In this document: piece after piece, positions 6,652-47,400 of the stretch
Layout of the letters: every line of letters begins with the position of its first letter
Numbering within the stretch: the first letter of the stretch is position 1
DNA from: Octopus vulgaris
Taxonomy: Eukaryota
DNA: 64,000 nucleotides
Direction of reading: 5' to 3'
NCBI GenBank assembly: GCA_951406725.2
Contig: OX597818.1
Coordinates: 99,944,001-100,008,000, forward strand
Notes under the pieces: model-generated
What the model saw: the letters and a program-made list of their open reading frames with translations, nothing else
Databases searched by the model: none
What the model was told of the DNA's origin: nothing
Made by a program: the position numbers and the translations under genes

Positions 6652-6840
6652 ATCCAAACATGAAAACACAAAGAGAAAACACAACAACACGGAGACGTGG
6701 AACAAGTATAGTGTTATTGGACGCTCAGGAAGGAAGGAAAGAAGGAGGGTTTTACGTTTCGAGCGGAGCTCTTCGTCAGAAACATAGGGAAAGGAAAGAT
6801 CCAGAGAAGGGAAGACGGAGGAAAAAAATTGCCAACGGTA
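6648..6840 (-). mobile_element. short Penelope-like pLTR remnant between (TA)n and (CA)n tracts
   Basis: About 190 bp, pyrimidine-rich on the - strand, carrying a minimal hammerhead. A similar architecture occurs at 42990-43170. Confidence 0.65.
6749..6783 (-). ncRNA. minimal type I hammerhead ribozyme
   Basis: The - strand reads GUUU CUGACGA A GAGC UCC GCUC GAAAC GUA AAAC. Stem I is GUUU/AAAC, stem II is GAGC/GCUC, stem III is the palindrome ACGU, and the cleavage triplet is GUA. Confidence 0.85.
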
Positions 6841-6861
6841 CACACACACACACACATATAT

Positions 6862-6976
<115 letters not shown>

Positions 6977-7043
6977 TCGAGGTGAGTACTTGATAATTAT
7001 AAGCACCTGTGTATACCGTTTGGTGGTGTAGGTGGTGGAGTAA

Positions 7044-7519
7044 ATTGATCAAAATAAAATAAAAACATGATGCGAAGGATTCAGCGGTACATATGTTTCG
7101 GGCCTTTATTAGACAGATTTATAACAATGCATAATGTATGTCTGTGGCCTTCTTCAGCCGCGCACAACAGCTTCCACAAGGACATGTGTTACATCAAAAA
7201 TTCTTGGTTGGGGATGCAAATCCTCTCATTCGCGTACGACATAATGCGGCAGCAGCATAGAATTGAAGCGTCCATCTCTTTCTTCTCTCAATGTAGAATG
7301 AGGAAAATTGGATGTTGAGGTAATGTGAATAAATAAATACGTATATAGAGGTGAAGATGGAGGGGCGAGAATTCGGGACGAGGGATAGAAAATGTATAAA
7401 ATGTGTAAGTATAGAAAAATATAAAAATGTAGAGCATAAAGATATAAAGAGTTATAAGGAGATGTAAAGGGGGGTATAAAGAAAATAAAGGAATATAAAG
7501 AAATATAAATAAATATAAA
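7044..7519 (-). repeat. pLTR, 3' copy (sense to the ORF)
   Basis: Reverse complement of 10312-10767, differing by a handful of substitutions and a 21-nt insertion (7471-7491). The ORF track gives identical 83-aa translations at 7067-7318 (+) and 10493-10744 (-). Confidence 0.95.
7084..7161 (-). ncRNA. type I hammerhead ribozyme in the 3' pLTR
   Basis: The - strand reads GCGG CUGAAGA A GGCC [long loop] GGCC C GAAAC AUAU GUA CCGC. Stem I is GCGG/CCGC, stem II is GGCC/GGCC, and stem III is the palindrome ACAUAUGU. Confidence 0.85.
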
Positions 7520-8903
7520 GGCATAAGGTTATAAAGTAAAAATAGAAATAGAAATAAAAGTAAAAAAACATGATAAAAACATGATAAAAGTGTAAAAGAA
7601 AGTAAAGATAAGGGATGTATAGAGGTTACGGACCAAGCATGGTGGTCAGGAGATTGATAAAATTTAGTTGTAGAATTGTCAGTAAATCAACAGTTTCGTC
7701 TGGGGACCTAATGTGTTGTAAATCAGAGCTGATGAGCATTTAATCAGGTTCCTTGAATTAAATGGACTTCTAGTACATACATATCATCATGGATACATAC
7801 ACCCACATACACGCGTGCATATACGCCTCCAAGCCTATAAGCATACACACGCACTCGCGTGTAAACATGTACATAAACACACACGCACCCACACGCACGC
7901 GCGTACACATACATACATACAACAGAATATCCGCATGTATACACGGACACTATACGCGTACACACTCACATGTACATACGCGCGCCCATCGCTACATACA
8001 CACACGTATATGCCCACGCCCCTAGGTCTAGGTATAAGATATTAAAGGATGTATATAAGAACGTATGTAAAAAATCACGTACTCATGTCTATACGTGCAC
8101 GCACACACGGCTGTGTGTCCGTATGTGCGTGCACATATACACTCACATACACACACAGAGACACACGCGCATATGGGTATAGCTATAAGATATCGAAGTA
8201 TGCATGTACACATATGCGCGTGCATATGTATGTATGCGTATACACACGTACGCGGACGCTCGTATAGTCAAAAAGTGGATCCATAGGTAAGTAAATAAAC
8301 ATATATAGAGGTGTAAAGCGATAAGTTAGGGGTAAGAACGAGGGTAAGGGTAAAAATTAGAAATAAAAAATACAGTATAAAATAAGAAATACAATGTAAT
8401 AGTTAGAAATGAAATATAAGAATTATAAAAATTATAATAGTTAAGGTAAGGGATGAAAATAAAAATGAGAATAAATGGAAGTAGAATAAAAGTAAAAATA
8501 AAAATAAATGGAAGTAGGATAAAAGTAAAAATAAAAATAAAAGTAAAAATAAAAATAAAATAAAATAAGATAAAAATATAATTTGGTAAAGTTTAACATG
8601 AGATGAAGGTGGTTGAAAGTTAGAGGTGTGTGTTAAACGTAGGGGCGGGCGGGGGGAACTGAAAATTGGAAGGGTGGGAAGTGGAGTTTGGCGGTGTGCG
8701 TTCAACATCCGAGTTAGAAATGTGAAAGGGTATAGATATAGGGAATTAAAGAGACTATATAGGGAGGATATGGGTGTAGGAGAAGAAATATTTAGGGAAA
8801 AGAAGTCATATATGGGAGACAAAATTTGTATATATAGGAGGAAAATGCAGGGAACCGTATATGCACATACACACACCCACACACACACACACACACGCAC
8901 ATG

Positions 8904-8936
<33 letters not shown>

Positions 8937-9069
8937 GTACACGTATGTGCGCATACACACACATACACACACATACACATATACACGCACATATAGGAAA
9001 GCGGGATGTGCTGGAGCCGACAGGTTGCACCGAGTGGGAGGAAATTGCATGGGGGAGTTGGTATAAGAC

Positions 9070-10311
9070 CTAAGCTTTGTAGTATTTGAAAGTATTAATA
9101 AGTTTATGTATACAGGATGGTTTGAACTCTGACCTTTTGTTAATAAGATTGTGTTTGTCTTTGAATTTCAAGATGTTCAGGAGTTCTACACAACATAGTT
9201 GGCATCCTGCTCTGTTATTTAAATAAGGTGCAGCTGATCCGATGATGGACCATCTGAGTTTGAAGCCTATGCATTTGTCTTTTAATTCCCAAATTCTTTT
9301 AGAGAGGGAGGTGCTGTTAGCCTTATGTCTGTGTCTCAGCGAGGACCGGTGGTTGTAGTATCTGGATTTCCAGGGGGCTGAGCAACCAATATAGGTGAGT
9401 GTGTTAAACTGAGTACTCACCTCACATGAGTATATTACGTTTTTCGCCCTACATGCGCCCTGCAGCGGGCCCTCTGATGCACATCTGCAGTTGCATTGCA
9501 TTGCATTATTCGGTCGTGTGCTGCTAATCCCAGGCGGAGGTGTTGCAATACGAGTGGGGGCGTTGGTATCCTCCTGGTTGTTGATGGGTGTAGTATTTCC
9601 TCTGTTGTGTTGGCGGGTGTTATTACTAACTGTTTGGGTAGTATGGCTGCCAGTCTGGTTATATTGTCTACTGTCTAGATGAGGGGGGTTCTGTTGGTCG
9701 CTATGGTTTGCTCTTGATCTAGCTGTTCTAATATTAATATAGTTATGTTTAGCTATGAGGCAGCTCATGTTGGGCAGGGTAGAGTAGGAAATCCTAATAG
9801 TTTTGTTGGAGAAGATACTTCTATACTTGTGGGTGGGTGGGAAGTTGTTGGAAATTATAGAGAATATTCTCTTACATAACTTACCCCTAACTGCTAAGTT
9901 GTAAGGTATGTTGAACCATATATATTTGCGTAATCTACTATTATCCCTTCTATTTCTCCTAATAGGATCTATATTGCTCTCGTCGGGAGGGTTACTATTG
10001 TGTGCTATTCTATTATTTCGCCTATTTCCTATACGTTGTTTGGAGTTTAAATTAGAATTATCGCTAGTGTGAGTTGAGTGCTGAGTTCGATTATAATTGG
10101 GAGTCTTATGGCCGACGGACGCTCCCGGGTGGTCTACATATGATATTCTCTGGTTATACCCGGCACTATAGAGAGCCTGGTTGTAGTGTTGTGCATGATT
10201 ATTGAAAATTTCTCTATTAGAGGATAGTTTTGTCAGTCTGTCTGAGATGGCTTGGACCGTGGTGCTAATTATACAGGGTGGATGGTTGGAAGAGGTATGG
10301 TTGGAAGAGGT
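9070..10311 (-). CDS. 5'-truncated Penelope-like (Naiad-type) polyprotein: RT thumb, linker and C-terminal GIY-YIG endonuclease
   Basis: Manual translation keeps the frame open upstream of the track's Met: SNHPPCII..AISDRLTKLSSNREIF..YNQALYSAGY..RKYIWFNIPY..NNFPPTHKYRSIFSNKTIRISYSTLPNM..CNCR..PLQGAC..VIY..TYIG..WKSRYYNH..TSLSKRIWELK..CQLC..NKRSE..CIH. No start codon; truncated at the inverted pLTR. Confidence 0.9.
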   Translation of the reverse strand, partial: TSSNHTSSNHPPCIISTTVQAISDRLTKLSSNREIFNNHAQHYNQALYSAGYNQRISYVDHPGASVGHKTPNYNRTQHSTHTSDNSNLNSKQRIGNRRNNRIAHNSNPPDESNIDPIRRNRRDNSRLRKYIWFNIPYNLAVRGKLCKRIFSIISNNFPPTHKYRSIFSNKTIRISYSTLPNMSCLIAKHNYINIRTARSRANHSDQQNPPHLDSRQYNQTGSHTTQTVSNNTRQHNRGNTTPINNQEDTNAPTRIATPPPGISSTRPNNAMQCNCRCASEGPLQGACRAKNVIYSCEVSTQFNTLTYIGCSAPWKSRYYNHRSSLRHRHKANSTSLSKRIWELKDKCIGFKLRWSIIGSAAPYLNNRAGCQLCCVELLNILKFKDKHNLINKRSEFKPSCIHKLINTFKYYKA

Positions 10312-10767
10312 ATTTACATTTATTTATATTTCTTTATATTCCTTTACATCTCCTTATAACTCTTTATATCTTTATTCTCTACATTTTTATATTTTTCTAT
10401 ACTTACACTTTTTATACATTTTCTATCCCTCGTCCCGAATTCTCGCCCCTCCATCTTCACCTCTATATACGTATTTATTTATTCACATTACCTCAACATC
10501 CAATTTTCCTCATTCTACATTGAGAGAAGAAAGAGATGGACGCTTCAATTCTATGCTGCTGCCGCATTATGTCGTACGCGAATGAGAGGATTTGCATCCC
10601 CAACCAAGAATTTTTGATGTAACACATGTCCTTGTGGAAGCTGTTGTGCGCGGCTGAAGAAGGCCACAGACATACATTATGCATTGTTATAAATCTGTCT
10701 AAAAGAGGCCCGAAACATATGTACCGCTGAATCCTTCGCATCATGTTTTTATTTTATTTTGATCAAT
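10312..10767 (+). repeat. inverted pLTR at the 5' truncation point
   Basis: Reverse complement of 7044-7519; ends gatcaat directly into (TA)n. Confidence 0.95.
10650..10727 (+). ncRNA. type I hammerhead ribozyme in the inverted pLTR
   Basis: gcgg ctgaaga a ggcc ... ggcc c gaaac atat gta ccgc. Predicted cleavage is after GUA at 10723. Confidence 0.85.
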
Positions 10768-11200
10768 ATATATATATATATAAGTATGTTTTCCTTATCT
10801 CAGTATGTTGTTGAAATTTGTGAGACTAATGGAAACGTGAAACAAGACTAGATATATTTATATCTTAAACAAAACACACTTCCAATAAAATGATGTACTA
10901 TTTCTATACTGCCTTGCGGGATGTTGAATAGTTTTAAATATAGAGGTATAATAAATCAAATTATGTCTTTAGTGAATGTCAACAATGTAAAGATGTTATT
11001 CCTCACTTACTACAATTCATCTCTAAAAATTAAATTGCACTGGTCATGCAAATCAATGTAGTCAAATAGCTTTTAGCAAAAACAAAAATAAGTAAGACAA
11101 CGGAAAGTAAATATCTGACCGTTTGCTATCTTCAGGCGCTTTGGCACTTTGTGGGCATCGGATTTTATGAATAATATACTATGCTTATATTTTGTTATTT

Positions 11201-11420
11201 TTTGCTTGTTTCAGTCAATTCAATGCGGCTATGTAAGAGCACCGCCTCAATAGATTGTTATTCACATAATTCGACTCAAATAGTTATTCTTTGTAAGCCT
11301 AGTACTTAATATATCGGTACACTTTGCCGAACCGGAAAGTTTCGGGATCGTGAAAACAGTAACGTTCTTTAACAAGCCGCAGTGGGTGACAAACACAGAC
11401 ACAAGGAGGCCCCCCCCACA

Positions 11421-11472
<52 letters not shown>

Positions 11473-11664
11473 ATACATATATATATATAGAGAGAGAGAC
11501 ACACACACACAACAGGCACCAATCAGTTTTAGTCTACCAAATCCGCTCTCAAGGGTTAGGTCAGTCCGAAGCTATAGCAGAAGACACTTGTCCAAGTTGT
11601 CACGCAGTGGGACTGGACCTCGAATTATGTGGTTTGGGGGAGCAAGCTTCTTACTACACAACCA

Positions 11665-11669
<5 letters not shown>
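11201..11669 (-). mobile_element. SINE family B
   Basis: Reverse-complement match to family B: tttcagtc..gagcaccgcct..cttgtaagcctagtactt, internal CA/TA tract, tctaccaaatcc..gaagacacttg..agcaagcttcttactacaca. Confidence 0.85.
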
Positions 11670-11712
<43 letters not shown>

Positions 11713-34962: not shown

Positions 34963-35442
34963 TGCACAGGCTGTGTAGTAAGACGTTTGCCTCACAACCA
35001 CATGGTTCCAGGTTCAGTCCCACTGTGTGGCATCTTGAGCAAAAGTTTTCTACTAAAGTCACGGGCTAAGCAAAGCCTTGTGAGTAGATTTGATAGAAGG
35101 AAGCTGAAAAGTAGCCCGTCGTGTATGTATATATATATATATATCACCGTGATCAACCAGGCTATCAGATGTTGCTACACATCGCTGGTCACAATGCGCT
35201 TCGCATTGTTTTATGATGCCACCCCGCTGGCTAAGCGAGCAGACCAATAGGAGAAAGAGTGAGAGAAAGTTGTGGCGAAAGAGTACAGCAGGGATCGCCA
35301 CCACCCCCTGCTGGAGCCTCATGGAAGTTTAGGTGTTTTCGTTCAATAAACACTCACAACGCCCGGTCTGGGAATCGAAACCGCGATCCTACGACCACGA
35401 GTCCGCTGCCCTAACCACAGGACCATTGTTCCTCCACGTATA

Positions 35443-35528
<86 letters not shown>

Positions 35529-35735
35529 AGTCTCTCTTTGTCTGTGTTTGACAACCAGTGCTGGTATGTTTACGTCTCCGTAACTTAGTGGTACGGCAAA
35601 ATATATCGATAAATGAAGTACCAGGTTTAAAAGGAAACAAGTACTGGAATCGATACCTTCGACTAAAAATCTTTCGAGGCCGTGCCCCAGCATGGCCGCA
35701 ATAAAAAACCTGCAACAAAGTAAACGAATGAAAGA
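34963..35735 (+). mobile_element. SINE family B split by a nested family A SINE
   Basis: 5' half 34963-35121, TA tract, inserted SINE A, TA/TG tract, then 3' half 35520-35735 (ttgacaaccagtgctggtatgtttacgtctccgtaacttag..ccagcatggccgca). Confidence 0.85.
35144..35436 (-). mobile_element. SINE family A (nested)
   Basis: gtgagagaaagttgtggcgaaagagtacagcaggg..caataaacactcacaacgcccggtctgggaatcgaaaccgcgatcctacgaccacgagtccgctgccctaaccac. Confidence 0.9.
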
Positions 35736-36682
35736 ATATATTTTTCCAATACCTTCTAGTTGTTTCTTACATTATCAGTAGATATTCCTGTTATTAGGTC
35801 CCGTTAATCCTTCATGTGCTGTGTTCAGTGTTTTGATTAATTTCGTCAGGAAGATTCCTTCGATAACCGTGATCCTCATGAATATTCTACGTCCCTTGCT
35901 GTTGTACCGTATTTGTATCTAGTGTTTCTTTAGCGAATTTATGATTGAATTTCGAAAGATTAAATTCGAAATGTTTATTTCTTCAAACAATCGCAACCGC
36001 TTATAACAACAGATTCTTTGCAATTCAGCAATAAGTTCTTGCTTTAAGTTTTAACACTTTTACATTACGATGAATACAGATACGACATGAAAAAATTACA
36101 TGGGGCGGCGGAATCTGAATGGAAACGCAATCCACATAACTTGGATGGTATCAAAGCAATTACGGATATGTTTGTTATCTTTGAAGAATAAGTGATTGCA
36201 TTTAGATTGTTGGTGCAATGCAGTAAGCTCGGTTGTTATGTGCGCTGCATATGATAGCTCTACCTCAAAAGAGATACAAACAAACGCAGAAAAAAGAGCA
36301 GCTGAGAGGAGCTGTGATAGAAAGCAGAGGTATAAACATCTCCAAAACTACTGTTTTGAAAGGTACTAGGATGGCAGAAATACCCCCTTGTTCTAAATTA
36401 TGGGTTTTGGCCATCAAGAAACCTAAGATTCTGCTCTCAGCTGGATCATCTATTGCAGTAAGAGGTGGAATGGTTGACTTAAACATAAAAGAATAGACGT
36501 AAAATATCAAGGCATTAATCCTTGGCCAAAGACCAGCAAATCCCGCTCCACCGAACAGTTTATTGTATAACTAACAAGAAACTAATGGACGATGGAAGCA
36601 TCATGAATAAGGATAGAAAATGCGCTGTTTTCATTAACAATGATATGGAAAATTATTATGGGACCAGTACATGTACACAAAC

Positions 36683-43991: not shown

Positions 43992-43995
43992 ATAT

Positions 43996-44192
43996 TCTTT
44001 TATTTGTTTCAGTCATTTGACTGTGGCGATGCTGGAGCACCGCCTTTAGTCGAGCCAATCGATCCCAGGATTTATTCTTTGTAAGCCTAGTACTTATTCT
44101 ATCGGTCTCTCTTGCCGAAGCGCTAAGTGAGGGGAACCTAAACACACCAGCATCGGTTGTCAAGCAATACCAGATGGACAAACACAGAGACA

Positions 44193-44277
<85 letters not shown>

Positions 44278-44436
44278 GACGGGATTCTTTCAGTTTTCGC
44301 CTACCGAGTCCACTCACAAAGCTTTGGTCAGCCCGAGGCTATAGTAGAAGACACTTGCCCAAGCTACCACGCAGTGAGATTGAACCCGGAACCATGTGGT
44401 TGGTAAGCAAGCTACTTATGACACAGCCACTCCTGC
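43996..44436 (-). mobile_element. SINE family B, full length
   Basis: Tail ttgtttcagtcatttgactgtggcgatgctggagcaccgcctttagtcgagc, internal CA/TA tract, head gaacccggaaccatgtggttggtaagcaagctacttatgacacagccactcctgcg. Confidence 0.92.
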
Positions 44437-47400
44437 GTACATATATATTCATGTATCTATATATACCTAACTATTTGTTCGTGGTATTCTTAAAAAGGAA
44501 AAAAACATGCACCTTCATGGAAACGTTTTCTCATATGAAATAAATTGTCTTTGCAAATTACGAAATATTTCTTACCAGACTACCACGTTAAAAATATGCT
44601 GTGAATCCGCAACACGTCCATGATAGTGGAGAATGTAAAGCCATATAACGTATAAATGCTTTCACATAATATTTACACGTCAAGCTAAATGCATGATATT
44701 TACTATCGCTTATAAATGAGTTGGATGTCATGAGTTCTACTTTAAGAGGGGAAGGTAAATTTATGTGCATTTGGATAAACAATTAATACTAACAATTTAT
44801 ATAACGCAATGTCTAATGCTTTGAAAAGTTAGTGAGAATATGTCATGTAATAATCGAGTTGCCTGGTATGAAAGGAGAATGATATTCTCATAAAAGGGAA
44901 CATACATAATAAACTGATGTAAAGGGACACCATTAAATATTTTCCCCTGCATAGTTTGTTACGGTTAGTTTCCGTTGAATTATACAGTTAAGAGCGTGTT
45001 AAAATGACTGTACTTAATATAATTCTAAATATTTCGGTATCTGTAGCGAACGCGACATAGAGAAAGCGCAATCTCTTCTAACTGTCACCAAAAAGAAAAT
45101 TTAAAATATAAGGTGCATAAAGTATTCAGCGGTGAGTATCTGCAAACTACATACATTTACAATTTTGTTGTTTTGTTGAAAAACCCGTGTGTGTCATGGG
45201 CTATTTCGTACAATAGAATCGGTGACGCTTCACGATCATTTCAGGTTTCAGCCGTTTGCCTGCAAATCTGTTTATATTATTCACTCTGTTAGAACCCACT
45301 CGTTAAAAAAAATACTGAATGCAAAATCAACAGATGTACGAAATAAAATTAAGCAGTGTAGCATTTATAATGTTCTGAAAGGTGAATGAAATGAAATAAG
45401 TGGTATTATTCAATATAAAAAATAAATTGAAAAACCGGATTGAAAACGCAACTTAGTCGAAGTTACTTCTATATGGTGATGATAAATTATTCTCTATTTG
45501 TATATCACAATTTTTCGGTAACATTACGACATGGAGTTATATCTTGCATCTTCTAGAGAAAATGCTAATTGGAATCATTGTTTTGTTCATTAATAACATG
45601 CATACCTCATAACAATTTCTTACGTCAATATTTATTTTGAAAAGAATATGCTTGGAAAGTGACAATAATGTTAGGTTTGGTTATAAGTGTATTATAATTG
45701 TAGCATCTTGATCACGAGTTTATATCGTTTCAATGGTGGAGAAAAAGCTAAATGTTTGTAAAACCTTTTTGCTTTTTGCAATTTCTGAACTTGAAAGAAT
45801 AGCTTCGTCTTTACGTTATTTTCTAGAATTTATCTATGAATATTAACGTATGATTATTAACAGTAGTCTTAAACATACAACGTCAACTTTGATGTATATT
45901 GTCTTCATGAACTGTTAATGACATTTTTATACAAAACAGAAATAAAGAACAGCAATTATAATCTGCAAAATGAGGAAAAAAGAATAAAACTACGTTAACA
46001 TATTCCTGAATTGCAATAAACGACGTTTAACAACTCTGCTTAATCTTAAAATGTATAGAATCTTGAAATGTCTCAAGGGTAGAGAATTCATGAAAGAAAT
46101 AAAAATAATAGATTTTCTAACCTTGGCTCCATACTATTACGTTTAATTTATTTTCTAATGCACGTTTCTACATGTTTTATTTCATATGTTGTTTTGGAAG
46201 CAATGTTATACAGATAAAATGAATTTCAGCCTAGAAATGAATATCTATTGAGCGCTTGGCTGAACGCGATTTAAAAATAGGTGTAAAATAGTGTAAAAAG
46301 AGACCTGCTATTCAATCATTGTAAATCTTCCCAAAGGGCAGAACGTGTTTAAAATTTTATTTCCGAGTTGTTGCTTTAATAACTTAGGTGAGGTAGAAGG
46401 GGAAACATGAACTAATGGCAGGGAATAATGCTGATGAAATTCCAATAATAAGGTAATTCTGTCATTACAACGAGAAACAAATTTAATTTAAATATGTCAA
46501 GTCCTGAGGCCTTTTTCATTCAATAATATTTCCTTTTGCCTTTACCTCCCCTGTGATGAAAAGTAATGAAAAATGATGGTTACTGTGATATAGAGGATGC
46601 TGTCCTTGATGGGCTGGGTGGCGATATTAGTTGAATAGTGAAAGTGGTAACAACGTTTGTACTAATATTCGTAATACTGCACTCTTAAGGCAACATCTCA
46701 ACTTTCCAATAAAGCCAGTGGCAAAGAAAATAATTCAGTTGACAATGTGTATTTTGCTTTTTTCTATTAATGCTGATATTAGTCAGGTCTTTTTATAGGA
46801 GTCAAAATGCCAGTCAATTTGGACAATGGCTCGCAGTTAGACATACACATGCTTAGAGTTTACGCGCACGTTTCTTCCTAATATTACTTATTGCATTCAC
46901 AAATATAGTCTTAACAAATAAGATGATGGTTACGTCGTGAAATTTGTTGATGAAAGAAAATATATTCAGTGATGGGTAACCTGGGGCTAAACATTAGAAA
47001 TAGTTGCATTTAAAAAAAAAATTCTGACAGGAGAACAAATGATATGCACTAATTTACCCAGCCTTAATAATGAACAAACTTCAAATTGGAATTTGTTTTA
47101 CTTATCTAAATGTGTGAAATGTTAATATAAGTTAGTTTAGATCGTATCCTCTGATAACTGAGTATAGAACAAAAATAGAAGAATCGCTAGATTCACCGAC
47201 TGAATATATTAAACTATACAGAATCCAGAAATAAATACAGAAATAAAACAGAAAATATTTGTACAAAATATTATCTCTATTTTTAGCTTAATGTTTTTGA
47301 AATCGTGAAAATTACATTTCGGTATAAACTTTTGAATTATCTTCCAAAAAGTTTTGCTTTTTGTATTTCATTTTGTTGCAATTTTCACATTTTACTTCCA

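What the first reader, a model, noticed from the sequence alone, without database searches (positions are those of the whole stretch)
10650..10727. Paired hammerhead ribozymes on opposite strands (10650-10727 + and 7084-7161 -)
Seen: a complete core (CUGAAGA...GAAA...GUA) with 4 bp stems I and II, an A/C mismatch at the base of stem II, a ~41 nt loop II and a palindromic stem III (ACAUAUGU). The only differences between the two copies fall in loop II. Known: PLE minimal hammerheads with palindromic stem III are thought to cleave as dimers. Inferred: each strand's transcript carries one sense ribozyme and its antisense complement. The locus could therefore either self-cleave or sequester the ribozyme in a ~450 bp duplex, acting as a built-in switch. 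The long loop II may supply a tertiary contact.
Basis: partly seen in the sequence, partly recalled or inferred. Interest (0 to 1): 0.7.

Follow-up and report, generated by a model that had tools for sequence, protein, structure and literature searches.

The report
Mirrored ends of one Penelope retrotransposon
The two opposite-strand hammerhead (predicted self-cutting RNA) motifs are the mirrored tail ends of one truncated insertion of a very common Penelope-type jumping gene, a layout already in print, so they are likely a by-product of how the element pastes itself in and not a built-in RNA switch.

Summary
Both type I hammerhead motifs are real (10650-10727 +, 7084-7161 -; two differences, both in loop II). 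They lie in a 458-bp inverted repeat formed by the two 3' ends of one 5'-truncated Penelope-like element with Hydra-clade motifs, inserted in (TA)n. The genome holds 1,503 exact-core copies. Among the first 100, 26 of 72 loci are head-to-head pairs spaced 80-5,076 bp apart; only 1 has the opposite orientation. In 14 of 14 two-armed loci examined, one arm ends at a short site and the other carries a tail (73 nt here). The pairing is therefore a footprint of integration. Opposite-strand hammerhead pairs in such elements are published (PMC4209133; PMC8557442 File S2). A designed switch is not supported: arm length is random, the arrangement gives no same-strand partner for a dimer, and no RNA contig crosses this locus's junction. 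Stem I, stem II and the palindromic stem III are supported by covariation across sister families. Cleavage is untested. Minor variants are a 41-nt loop II and an A-C apposition at the base of stem II. This scan already found the same layout and long loops on other DNA, in this and other genomes.

The parts
7084..7161 (-). Type I hammerhead motif in the element's own (sense) 3' end; predicted cut after A at 7088
   Evidence: this is the family's majority sequence (42 of 50 copies)
10650..10727 (+). Type I hammerhead motif in the inverted second arm; predicted cut after A at 10723; two private loop II changes (10703, 10705)
6971..10300 (-). Long arm: 5'-truncated Penelope-like element (ORF remnant, ~2-kb 3' UTR with microsatellites, hammerhead, tail); 98.5% identical to the full unit in L042
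9070..10300 (-). C-terminal part of the ORF: end of RT thumb, N/T-rich linker, CxCx5C motif, GIY-YIG-type endonuclease with CxxC and CxH; RT core and start are missing
   Evidence: 93-99% DNA identity to six longer copies
6971..7040 (-). Tail present on this arm only (73 nt between the short and long 3' ends); in tandem copies it continues into the 5' UTR of the next unit
10313..10767 (+). Short inverted arm: last ~455 bp of the element, ending at the short 3' end 44 nt past the predicted cut
10283..10312 (.). Head-to-head junction: a 12-nt filler (10301-10312) repeats 10286-10297, giving a 15-bp tandem duplication
   Evidence: sequence; family contigs leave the window at 10300 and 10313
6933..6970 (.). 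(TA)n target, left flank
   Evidence: outer ends of the family copies run into TA or TC/TA repeats
10768..10782 (.). (TA)n target, right flank

Best explanation
The two hammerhead motifs are the two outward-facing 3' ends of one young, 5'-truncated Penelope-like element with Hydra-clade motifs, likely made when its endonuclease cut a (TA)n repeat and both DNA ends primed reverse transcription on the same RNA, so the pair is likely an integration footprint without a role of its own. Shown: the inverted repeat, the ORF remnant, the family size, the frequency and random length of two-armed insertions, the short/long end asymmetry, the (TA)n targets, and shared variants between arms. Inferred: one end starts at a site 44 nt past the hammerhead cut and the other 117 nt past it; each cDNA stops at a random point; the two 5'-truncated products are joined head to head. 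Because every copy keeps sequence 3' of the predicted cut, the template would have to be uncut at that ribozyme, or circular. The ribozyme's working place is predicted to be tandem copies, where two same-strand hammerheads lie one unit apart (4,684 nt in L042) and 197 nt before the next ATG; there it would trim or circularise the RNA as a dimer or with help from the element's protein. At this locus each strand has one sense copy only, so it is predicted to cut poorly. If read through, it would form a long hairpin whose likely fate is small-RNA silencing.
For: The arms are the element's 3' end twice. 1,503 exact-core copies, control 0. Of the first 100 listed (contig C1), clustered at 6 kb into 72 loci: 26 are -/+ head-to-head, 1 is +/-, 45 are single; about 0.5 neighbours are expected by chance; spacing 80-5,076 bp, median 983. 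In 14 of 14 two-armed loci (the window plus 13 of the 33 loci fetched) one arm ends at or up to 18 nt inside the short site and the other side has the tail. Read by eye: in 6 of 6 pairs that carry a minority subfamily variant of loop II, both arms carry it. Junctions show 0-11 nt overlaps or 5-20 nt fillers. Sister PLE families in the genome also show opposite-strand hammerhead pairs (L082, L089, L091, L092, L093). Literature: dual minimal hammerheads ~100-700 bp apart on opposite strands (PMC4209133); an inverted 5'-truncated copy and a one-sided tail are typical of PLEs (PMC8557442; PMC3846280); Hydra-clade Penelope-13_HM is listed with a hammerhead on each strand (File S1/S2); the Anolis PLE protein cuts and extends both strands from two internal RNA sites that define the tail, and its hammerhead is protein-assisted and not needed for insertion in vitro (PMC11167929); inverted Penelope copies yield siRNAs that map to the inverted regions (PMC3681739).
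Against: No cleavage, insertion intermediate or empty target site was seen; the both-strand priming step is inferred from geometry and from work on another clade. 20 of 33 fetched loci have no second arm reaching the element's end within the fetched stretch, so two arms are not obligatory. Shared variants between arms could also come from gene conversion or from copying a DNA template. Clade assignment rests on motifs, not a tree with named Hydra proteins; RWK reads RWA here, the unit (4.7 kb) is longer than the <3 kb reported, and the tail (73 nt) is longer than the 30-40 bp reported. Pfam gives no RT or GIY-YIG hit on the family's own protein.
Confidence: 0.9

Rival explanations
1. One reading: the locus is transcribed through both arms, and the cell toggles between self-cleavage and sequestering the ribozyme in a ~450-bp duplex.
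For: The geometry allows the duplex, predicted at about -790 kcal/mol for the arms. For either read-through RNA the antisense copy is made first, so it could capture the sense copy. Family sequence is present in four guessed-RNA assemblies.
Against: A duplex that strong would be off at all times, not a toggle (inference). No same-strand dimer partner exists at the locus. Arm length is random across 26 pairs. The insertion is young (98.5% to L042). No contig crosses 10300-10313. No host gene was identified: 10 other long window ORFs have no Pfam hit over its cut-off.
Confidence: 0.04
2. Two-armed insertions are kept or favoured because their hairpin RNAs silence the family through siRNA or editing: a family-level brake rather than a ribozyme switch.
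For: About a third of loci are two-armed. siRNAs from inverted Penelope copies are reported in Drosophila (PMC3681739). Two guessed-RNA assemblies hold contigs with strand-switch joints inside the hammerhead and tail.
Against: The family reached 1,503 copies and keeps open full-length ORFs (842 aa in L075-L077 and L088). The same paper says such siRNAs did not silence Penelope efficiently. Contigs cannot show strand, level or editing, and the runs are only guessed to be RNA.
Confidence: 0.15
3. The hammerhead of this family is a weakened passenger: the A-C apposition replaces the usual G10.1-C11.1 pair, and the element spreads without cutting.
For: In the family of L176 one copy has G10.1 and another A, so G-to-A decay occurs. 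The monomer fold is not favoured. Naiad PLEs spread without canonical hammerheads (PMC8557442). Anolis hammerhead mutants still insert in vitro.
Against: Core, stems and palindrome are kept across unrelated families far above permutation controls. A-C families are multi-copy and young. U-U and U-C at that position are common in published Hydra hammerheads, and a U10.1-U11.1 natural variant is described (PMC3088659). This is compatible with the best explanation of the pairing; it differs only on activity.
Confidence: 0.3
4. A DNA transposon or MITE with long terminal inverted repeats that happens to carry a hammerhead.
For: The element is bounded by a 458-bp inverted repeat.
Against: The arms vary in length at their inner ends and differ at their outer ends. 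The interior is a truncated RT-endonuclease ORF. Many copies have one arm only.
Confidence: 0.01

Closest known systems
Hydra clade of C-terminal EN+ Penelope-like elements, e.g. Penelope-13_HM and Hydra-1_Obim (Craig et al. 2021, PMC8557442; seen: passages, sections 11 and 15, supplement Files S1-S2)
   Same: DKT motif, CxCx5C linker, CxxC and CxH in the endonuclease, C-terminal GIY-YIG, (TA)n targets, a type I hammerhead near the 3' end; Penelope-13_HM has an inverted 5'-truncated copy with a hammerhead on each strand; non-paired bases at the foot of stem II are common (U-U, U-C).
   Different: Unit 4.7 kb against <3 kb; RWA for RWK; loop II 41 nt against 3-10 nt in the listed Hydra hammerheads; A-C rather than U-U; 73-nt tail; the hammerhead sequence differs from that listed for Hydra-1_Obim, so this is another family.
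Minimal hammerheads of metazoan PLEs (Cervera and De la Pena 2014, PMC4209133; seen: results and discussion)
   Same: Type I, 4-bp stem I, palindromic stem III, predicted dimer cleavage, thousands of truncated copies, dual motifs on opposite strands.
   Different: Their consensus has an extra nucleotide after A9 with a conserved G10.1-C11.1 pair and a short loop II; here stem II is best read with A opposite C, and loop II is long.
PAc, Poseidon element of Anolis (Frangieh et al. 2024, PMC11167929; seen: main text parts 1-2 of 4)
   Same: Two 3' end points that define a tail; AT-rich targets; hammerhead upstream of the end points.
   Different: Other clade; in PAc the ORF starts inside the hammerhead, here the ATG lies 197 nt after the predicted cut.
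Animal non-LTR retrozymes (bioRxiv 10.64898/2026.07.22.740005; seen: abstract, introduction, part of methods)
   Same: Type I hammerheads related to PLE pseudo-LTRs.
   Different: Retrozymes are short non-coding same-strand tandem units; this locus is a protein-coding element remnant with an inverted arm.

Membership tests
Type I hammerhead ribozyme | Core CUGANGA / GAA / A15.1-U16.1 / H17 with open ends in stem I | tested here: met
Type I hammerhead ribozyme | Stems I-III supported by covariation | tested here: met
   Uninformative within the family (42 of 50 identical). Across 44 clusters from 97 pattern hits whose patterns did not ask for stems: stem I >=4 bp in 11 of 44 (permuted mean 1.0, max 6); stem II >=3 bp in the A-C register in 21 of 44 (5.3, max 13); palindromic stem III in 21 of 44 (4.5, max 13). 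Clustering was crude and ignores relatedness.
Type I hammerhead ribozyme | G10.1-C11.1 pair at the base of stem II | tested here: inconclusive
   Across clusters the A-C register is above chance and the extra-A register is not (8 of 44 against 5.7), but GG/CCC in this family allows both readings.
Type I hammerhead ribozyme | Match to an Rfam hammerhead model | tested here: not met
   No hit at E<=10 on 10560-10760; RF00163 over the genome returned 6 other loci out of 73 candidates scored.
Type I hammerhead ribozyme | Self-cleavage after H17 | not testable with these tools
   Only contigs were available, and they cannot show RNA ends.
EN+ Penelope-like element | Single ORF with RT followed by a GIY-YIG endonuclease | tested here: met
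   842-aa open frames in family copies. Alignment shows the RT motifs (GLYRDD) and VIY...YIG. The top homologue carries PF01541. Pfam itself does not hit the family protein.
EN+ Penelope-like element | Partial tandems, inverted 5'-truncated copy and one-sided tail | tested here: met
   L042 has an inverted arm, a partial tandem and a full unit; 14 of 14 two-armed loci are asymmetric.
Hydra clade | DKT in place of DKG | tested here: met
   PADKTGN
Hydra clade | CxCx5C linker; CxxC and CxH around the conserved E and N | tested here: met
   CNCRCASEC, CQLC, CIH
Hydra clade | CCHH motif absent from the endonuclease | tested here: met
   Only one, unconserved, Cys between VIY and YIG
Hydra clade | N-terminal RWK motif | tested here: inconclusive
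   RWA here; RW is invariant in the 8-sequence alignment and RWK is present in 3 of 7 homologues
Hydra clade | Insertion into (TA)n | tested here: met
Hydra clade | Groups with named Hydra proteins in a tree | not tested
Non-LTR retrozyme | Short non-coding same-strand tandem units, each with a hammerhead | tested here: not met
   4.7-kb coding unit; the two copies here are on opposite strands

The most novel reading that the evidence does not exclude
The 41-nt loop II is a functional module: it carries an AAUAAA that ends 17 nt before the ribozyme cut, with a U-rich tract beyond, so polyadenylation and self-cleavage compete for the same end of the element's RNA. That would be a poly(A)-signal-inside-a-ribozyme switch at the level of the element, not of this locus. 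A hexamer lies 10-30 nt before the cut in 6 of 25 hammerhead clusters (shuffled mean 1.0), but the reverse-complement control gives 4 of 25 and several of the 6 are related.
Probability: 0.08. Interest if true: 0.55.

Novelty: new member of a known kind. Interest (0 to 1): 0.17.

Why it matters
As a locus it is ordinary: one of several hundred two-armed insertions expected from 26 of 72 sampled loci. Its use is as material. A young family of 1,503 copies with open ORFs, a strict short-end/long-end asymmetry and matched variants in both arms lets one test how Penelope-like elements make inverted repeats, which PMC8557442 (section 15) names as unresolved. It also lets one test whether a hammerhead with a long loop II and an A-C foot still cuts.

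Tried and rejected
Rfam scans: no hammerhead hit, likely because of the long loop II; not taken as evidence against. Free-energy folding: no better than shuffles; expected for a motif with two 4-bp stems. Neptune clade was my first guess and was dropped, because the linker is CxCx5C and not CX2-5CxxC. I first preferred the extra-A + G10.1-C11.1 register from PMC4209133; it is not above chance across clusters and is kept only as an alternative for this family. 'Differences only in loop II' as a sign of selection: rejected (two private changes; the loop is half the motif). RNA: no holder is on record as RNA. Five guessed-RNA contig sets (X1, X3, X4, X6, X12; 5 of 23 listed) cover the family but not the flank 10825-11000; no GT-AG joint, no poly(A) loose end among the rows shown, and no end pile-up. 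These blanks are no evidence either way. Host gene: none identified; not pursued further. tRNA-like promoter as noted for other families in this genome: ARAGORN finds none in the window. PDB search with the protein profile: no hit. Alignment A2 was hand-picked and not used for counts. Lunse, Weinberg and Breaker (PMC5785218) is not held; I saw only its title in a reference list, and it may already describe such variants. Paper searches listed no paper on long-loop or A10.1-C11.1 hammerheads in cephalopod PLEs; five searches do not show absence from print. Supplement parts 3-59 of PMC8557442 and the supplements of the other papers were not read.

Full report
Observation. Each reads GCGG CUGAAGA A GGCC [41 nt] GGCC C GAA ACAUAUGU A CCGC, with the predicted cut after GUA at 10723 and 7088. 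They differ at 10703 and 10705 only. Both changes are private to the + copy (47 of 47 other copies covering the sites have the other base), and loop II is half of the motif, so their position says little. A strict descriptor finds these two motifs and one unrelated minimal motif in the window, and fires in 2 of 200 shuffles. Against the reading: Rfam gives no hammerhead hit, the strand folds no better than shuffles, and stem I is not predicted to form in its local context.

What surrounds them. The motifs sit in a 458-bp inverted repeat, 7041-7499 and 10313-10770. Between the arms lies an open frame on the - strand, 9070-10323, whose element-derived part starts at 10300. [quoted passage not shown] The nearest named homologues are from Argonauta and Solemya at 34-39% identity, the latter with PF01541. 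With a 2.8-Gb, microsatellite-rich genome this is likely an octopod (inference). The motifs DKT, CxCx5C, CxxC, CxH, the missing CCHH and the (TA)n targets match the definition of the Hydra clade (PMC8557442 section 11). RWK reads RWA, and no tree was built. L042 shows the whole plan: an inverted arm, a partial tandem copy and a full 4,684-bp unit. So the window holds a 5'-truncated copy (6971-10300, -) joined head to head to a 455-bp copy of its own 3' end (10313-10767, +), with a 12-nt filler at the joint.

How common the pairing is. A tight pattern for this hammerhead has 1,503 matches in the genome and 0 for the reversed control. The first 100 listed, all on contig C1, fall into 72 loci at a 6-kb cut-off: 26 begin with a -/+ head-to-head pair, 1 is +/-, and 45 are single; 0.5 neighbours are expected by chance. 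Spacings run from 80 to 5,076 bp. Of 33 loci fetched around the best matches, 13 are two-armed. In these and in the window, 14 of 14 have one arm ending at (or up to 18 nt inside) a short site and the other side carrying a tail; in L038 the second arm begins too late to hold a whole hammerhead. The other 20 have no second arm that reaches the element's end within the stretch fetched. The short and long ends lie 44 and 117 nt past the predicted cut. Read by eye, all 6 pairs that carry a minority subfamily variant of loop II carry it in both arms. Other PLE families of the genome show the same opposite-strand pairs.

Is the fold kept? The family is too young to covary (42 of 50 copies identical). 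I therefore searched the genome with patterns that fix the core, an A after A9 and a C before G12, but no stems (615, 43, 7 and 441 matches against 15, 4, 0 and 56 in controls). The 97 loci returned collapse to 44 clusters. Stem I of at least 4 bp occurs in 11 (permuted mean 1.0, max 6), stem II of at least 3 bp in the A-C register in 21 (5.3, max 13), in the extra-A register in 8 (5.7, max 12), and a palindromic stem III in 21 (4.5, max 13). The clustering is crude and ignores relatedness. Non-paired bases at this place are common in published Hydra hammerheads (U-U, U-C; File S2). Loop II there is 3-10 nt, against 41 here.

How it likely works. Established for other PLEs: an inverted 5'-truncated copy and a one-sided tail are typical (PMC8557442 passages; PMC3846280 passages). 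The Anolis protein cuts and extends both target strands from two internal RNA sites that define the tail, and its hammerhead is protein-assisted and dispensable for insertion in vitro (PMC11167929). Inferred here: the endonuclease cuts a (TA)n tract, both ends prime cDNA on one RNA, one at the short and one at the long site, each stops at random, and the truncated ends are joined. All copies keep sequence beyond the predicted cut, so the template would be uncut there or circular. The palindrome adds -0.4 kcal/mol as a monomer hairpin and -7.0 as an intermolecular duplex, in line with dimer cleavage (PMC4209133; review passages PMC6765202). That needs two same-strand copies, as in L042, where the cut lies 197 nt before the next ATG. 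At this locus each strand has one sense copy.

The switch idea. A read-through RNA would indeed be predicted to form a very stable hairpin. But arm length is random, the insertion is young, the element's own 5' end is missing, and no guessed-RNA contig crosses the junction (contigs cannot show ends or strand, and no run is on record as RNA). Where such hairpins were studied they gave siRNAs (PMC3681739 passages). Opposite-strand hammerhead pairs are in print: 'dual min-HHRs ... in opposite strands' and Penelope-13_HM with one on each strand.

Novelty. A new family member of a known clade, in a known layout. Earlier notes of this scan report the same two-armed geometry for other families of this genome and long stem II hammerheads in Hydra-type elements, one note describing a 1,450-copy family with a 51-base arm in another genome. 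These are unchecked notes and not support. My counts of the end asymmetry preceded, and the clade reading preceded. No note matched this sequence or place. The boldest reading left open is a poly(A) signal nested in loop II; the evidence is weak (6 of 25 clusters, reverse-complement control 4 of 25).

Verdict. Observation confirmed; interpretation partly supported; interest 0.17.

Noticed in passing
window 6753-6779 (-): A third, minimal hammerhead motif (extra A, G10.1-C11.1, 3-nt loop II, stem III ACGT) in a separate ~190-bp repeat beside the left (TA)n flank; its pattern has 4,502 matches in the genome, control 0.
   Followed up: partly
window 10701-10706 (+) and the matching place in the - copy: The family's loop II holds AATAAA ending 17 nt before the predicted cut; the two private changes of the + copy destroy it.
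   Followed up: partly
L100-L128 and other rows: A large family of related long-loop hammerheads, many spaced 546 bp apart in tandem or in head-to-head pairs; it looks like a retrozyme. Stem II covaries between its subfamilies (GTC/GAC and GCC/GGC).
   Followed up: partly
L070-L074, L082, L085, L089, L091, L092, L093: At least four other PLE families at 37-51% protein identity, several with open frames of 750-980 aa and long-loop hammerheads on both strands.
   Followed up: partly
window 6977-6990 (+): The tail, read antisense, contains a sequence like a consensus 5' splice donor (GAG/GTGAGT; consensus recalled). Whether it is used is unknown.
   Followed up: no
L042:4199-4320: Contigs of two guessed-RNA runs switch strand inside the hammerhead and tail, as expected from a two-armed copy with very short arms.
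   Followed up: no
window 11186-11698, 35128-35740, 43993-44465: Diverged (69-73%) dispersed repeats beside the right flank with further copies in the window; not identified.
   Followed up: no
L065, L066, L069: Hammerheads with a ~77-nt stem/loop II and palindromic stem III that pass the RF00163 cut-off.
   Followed up: no
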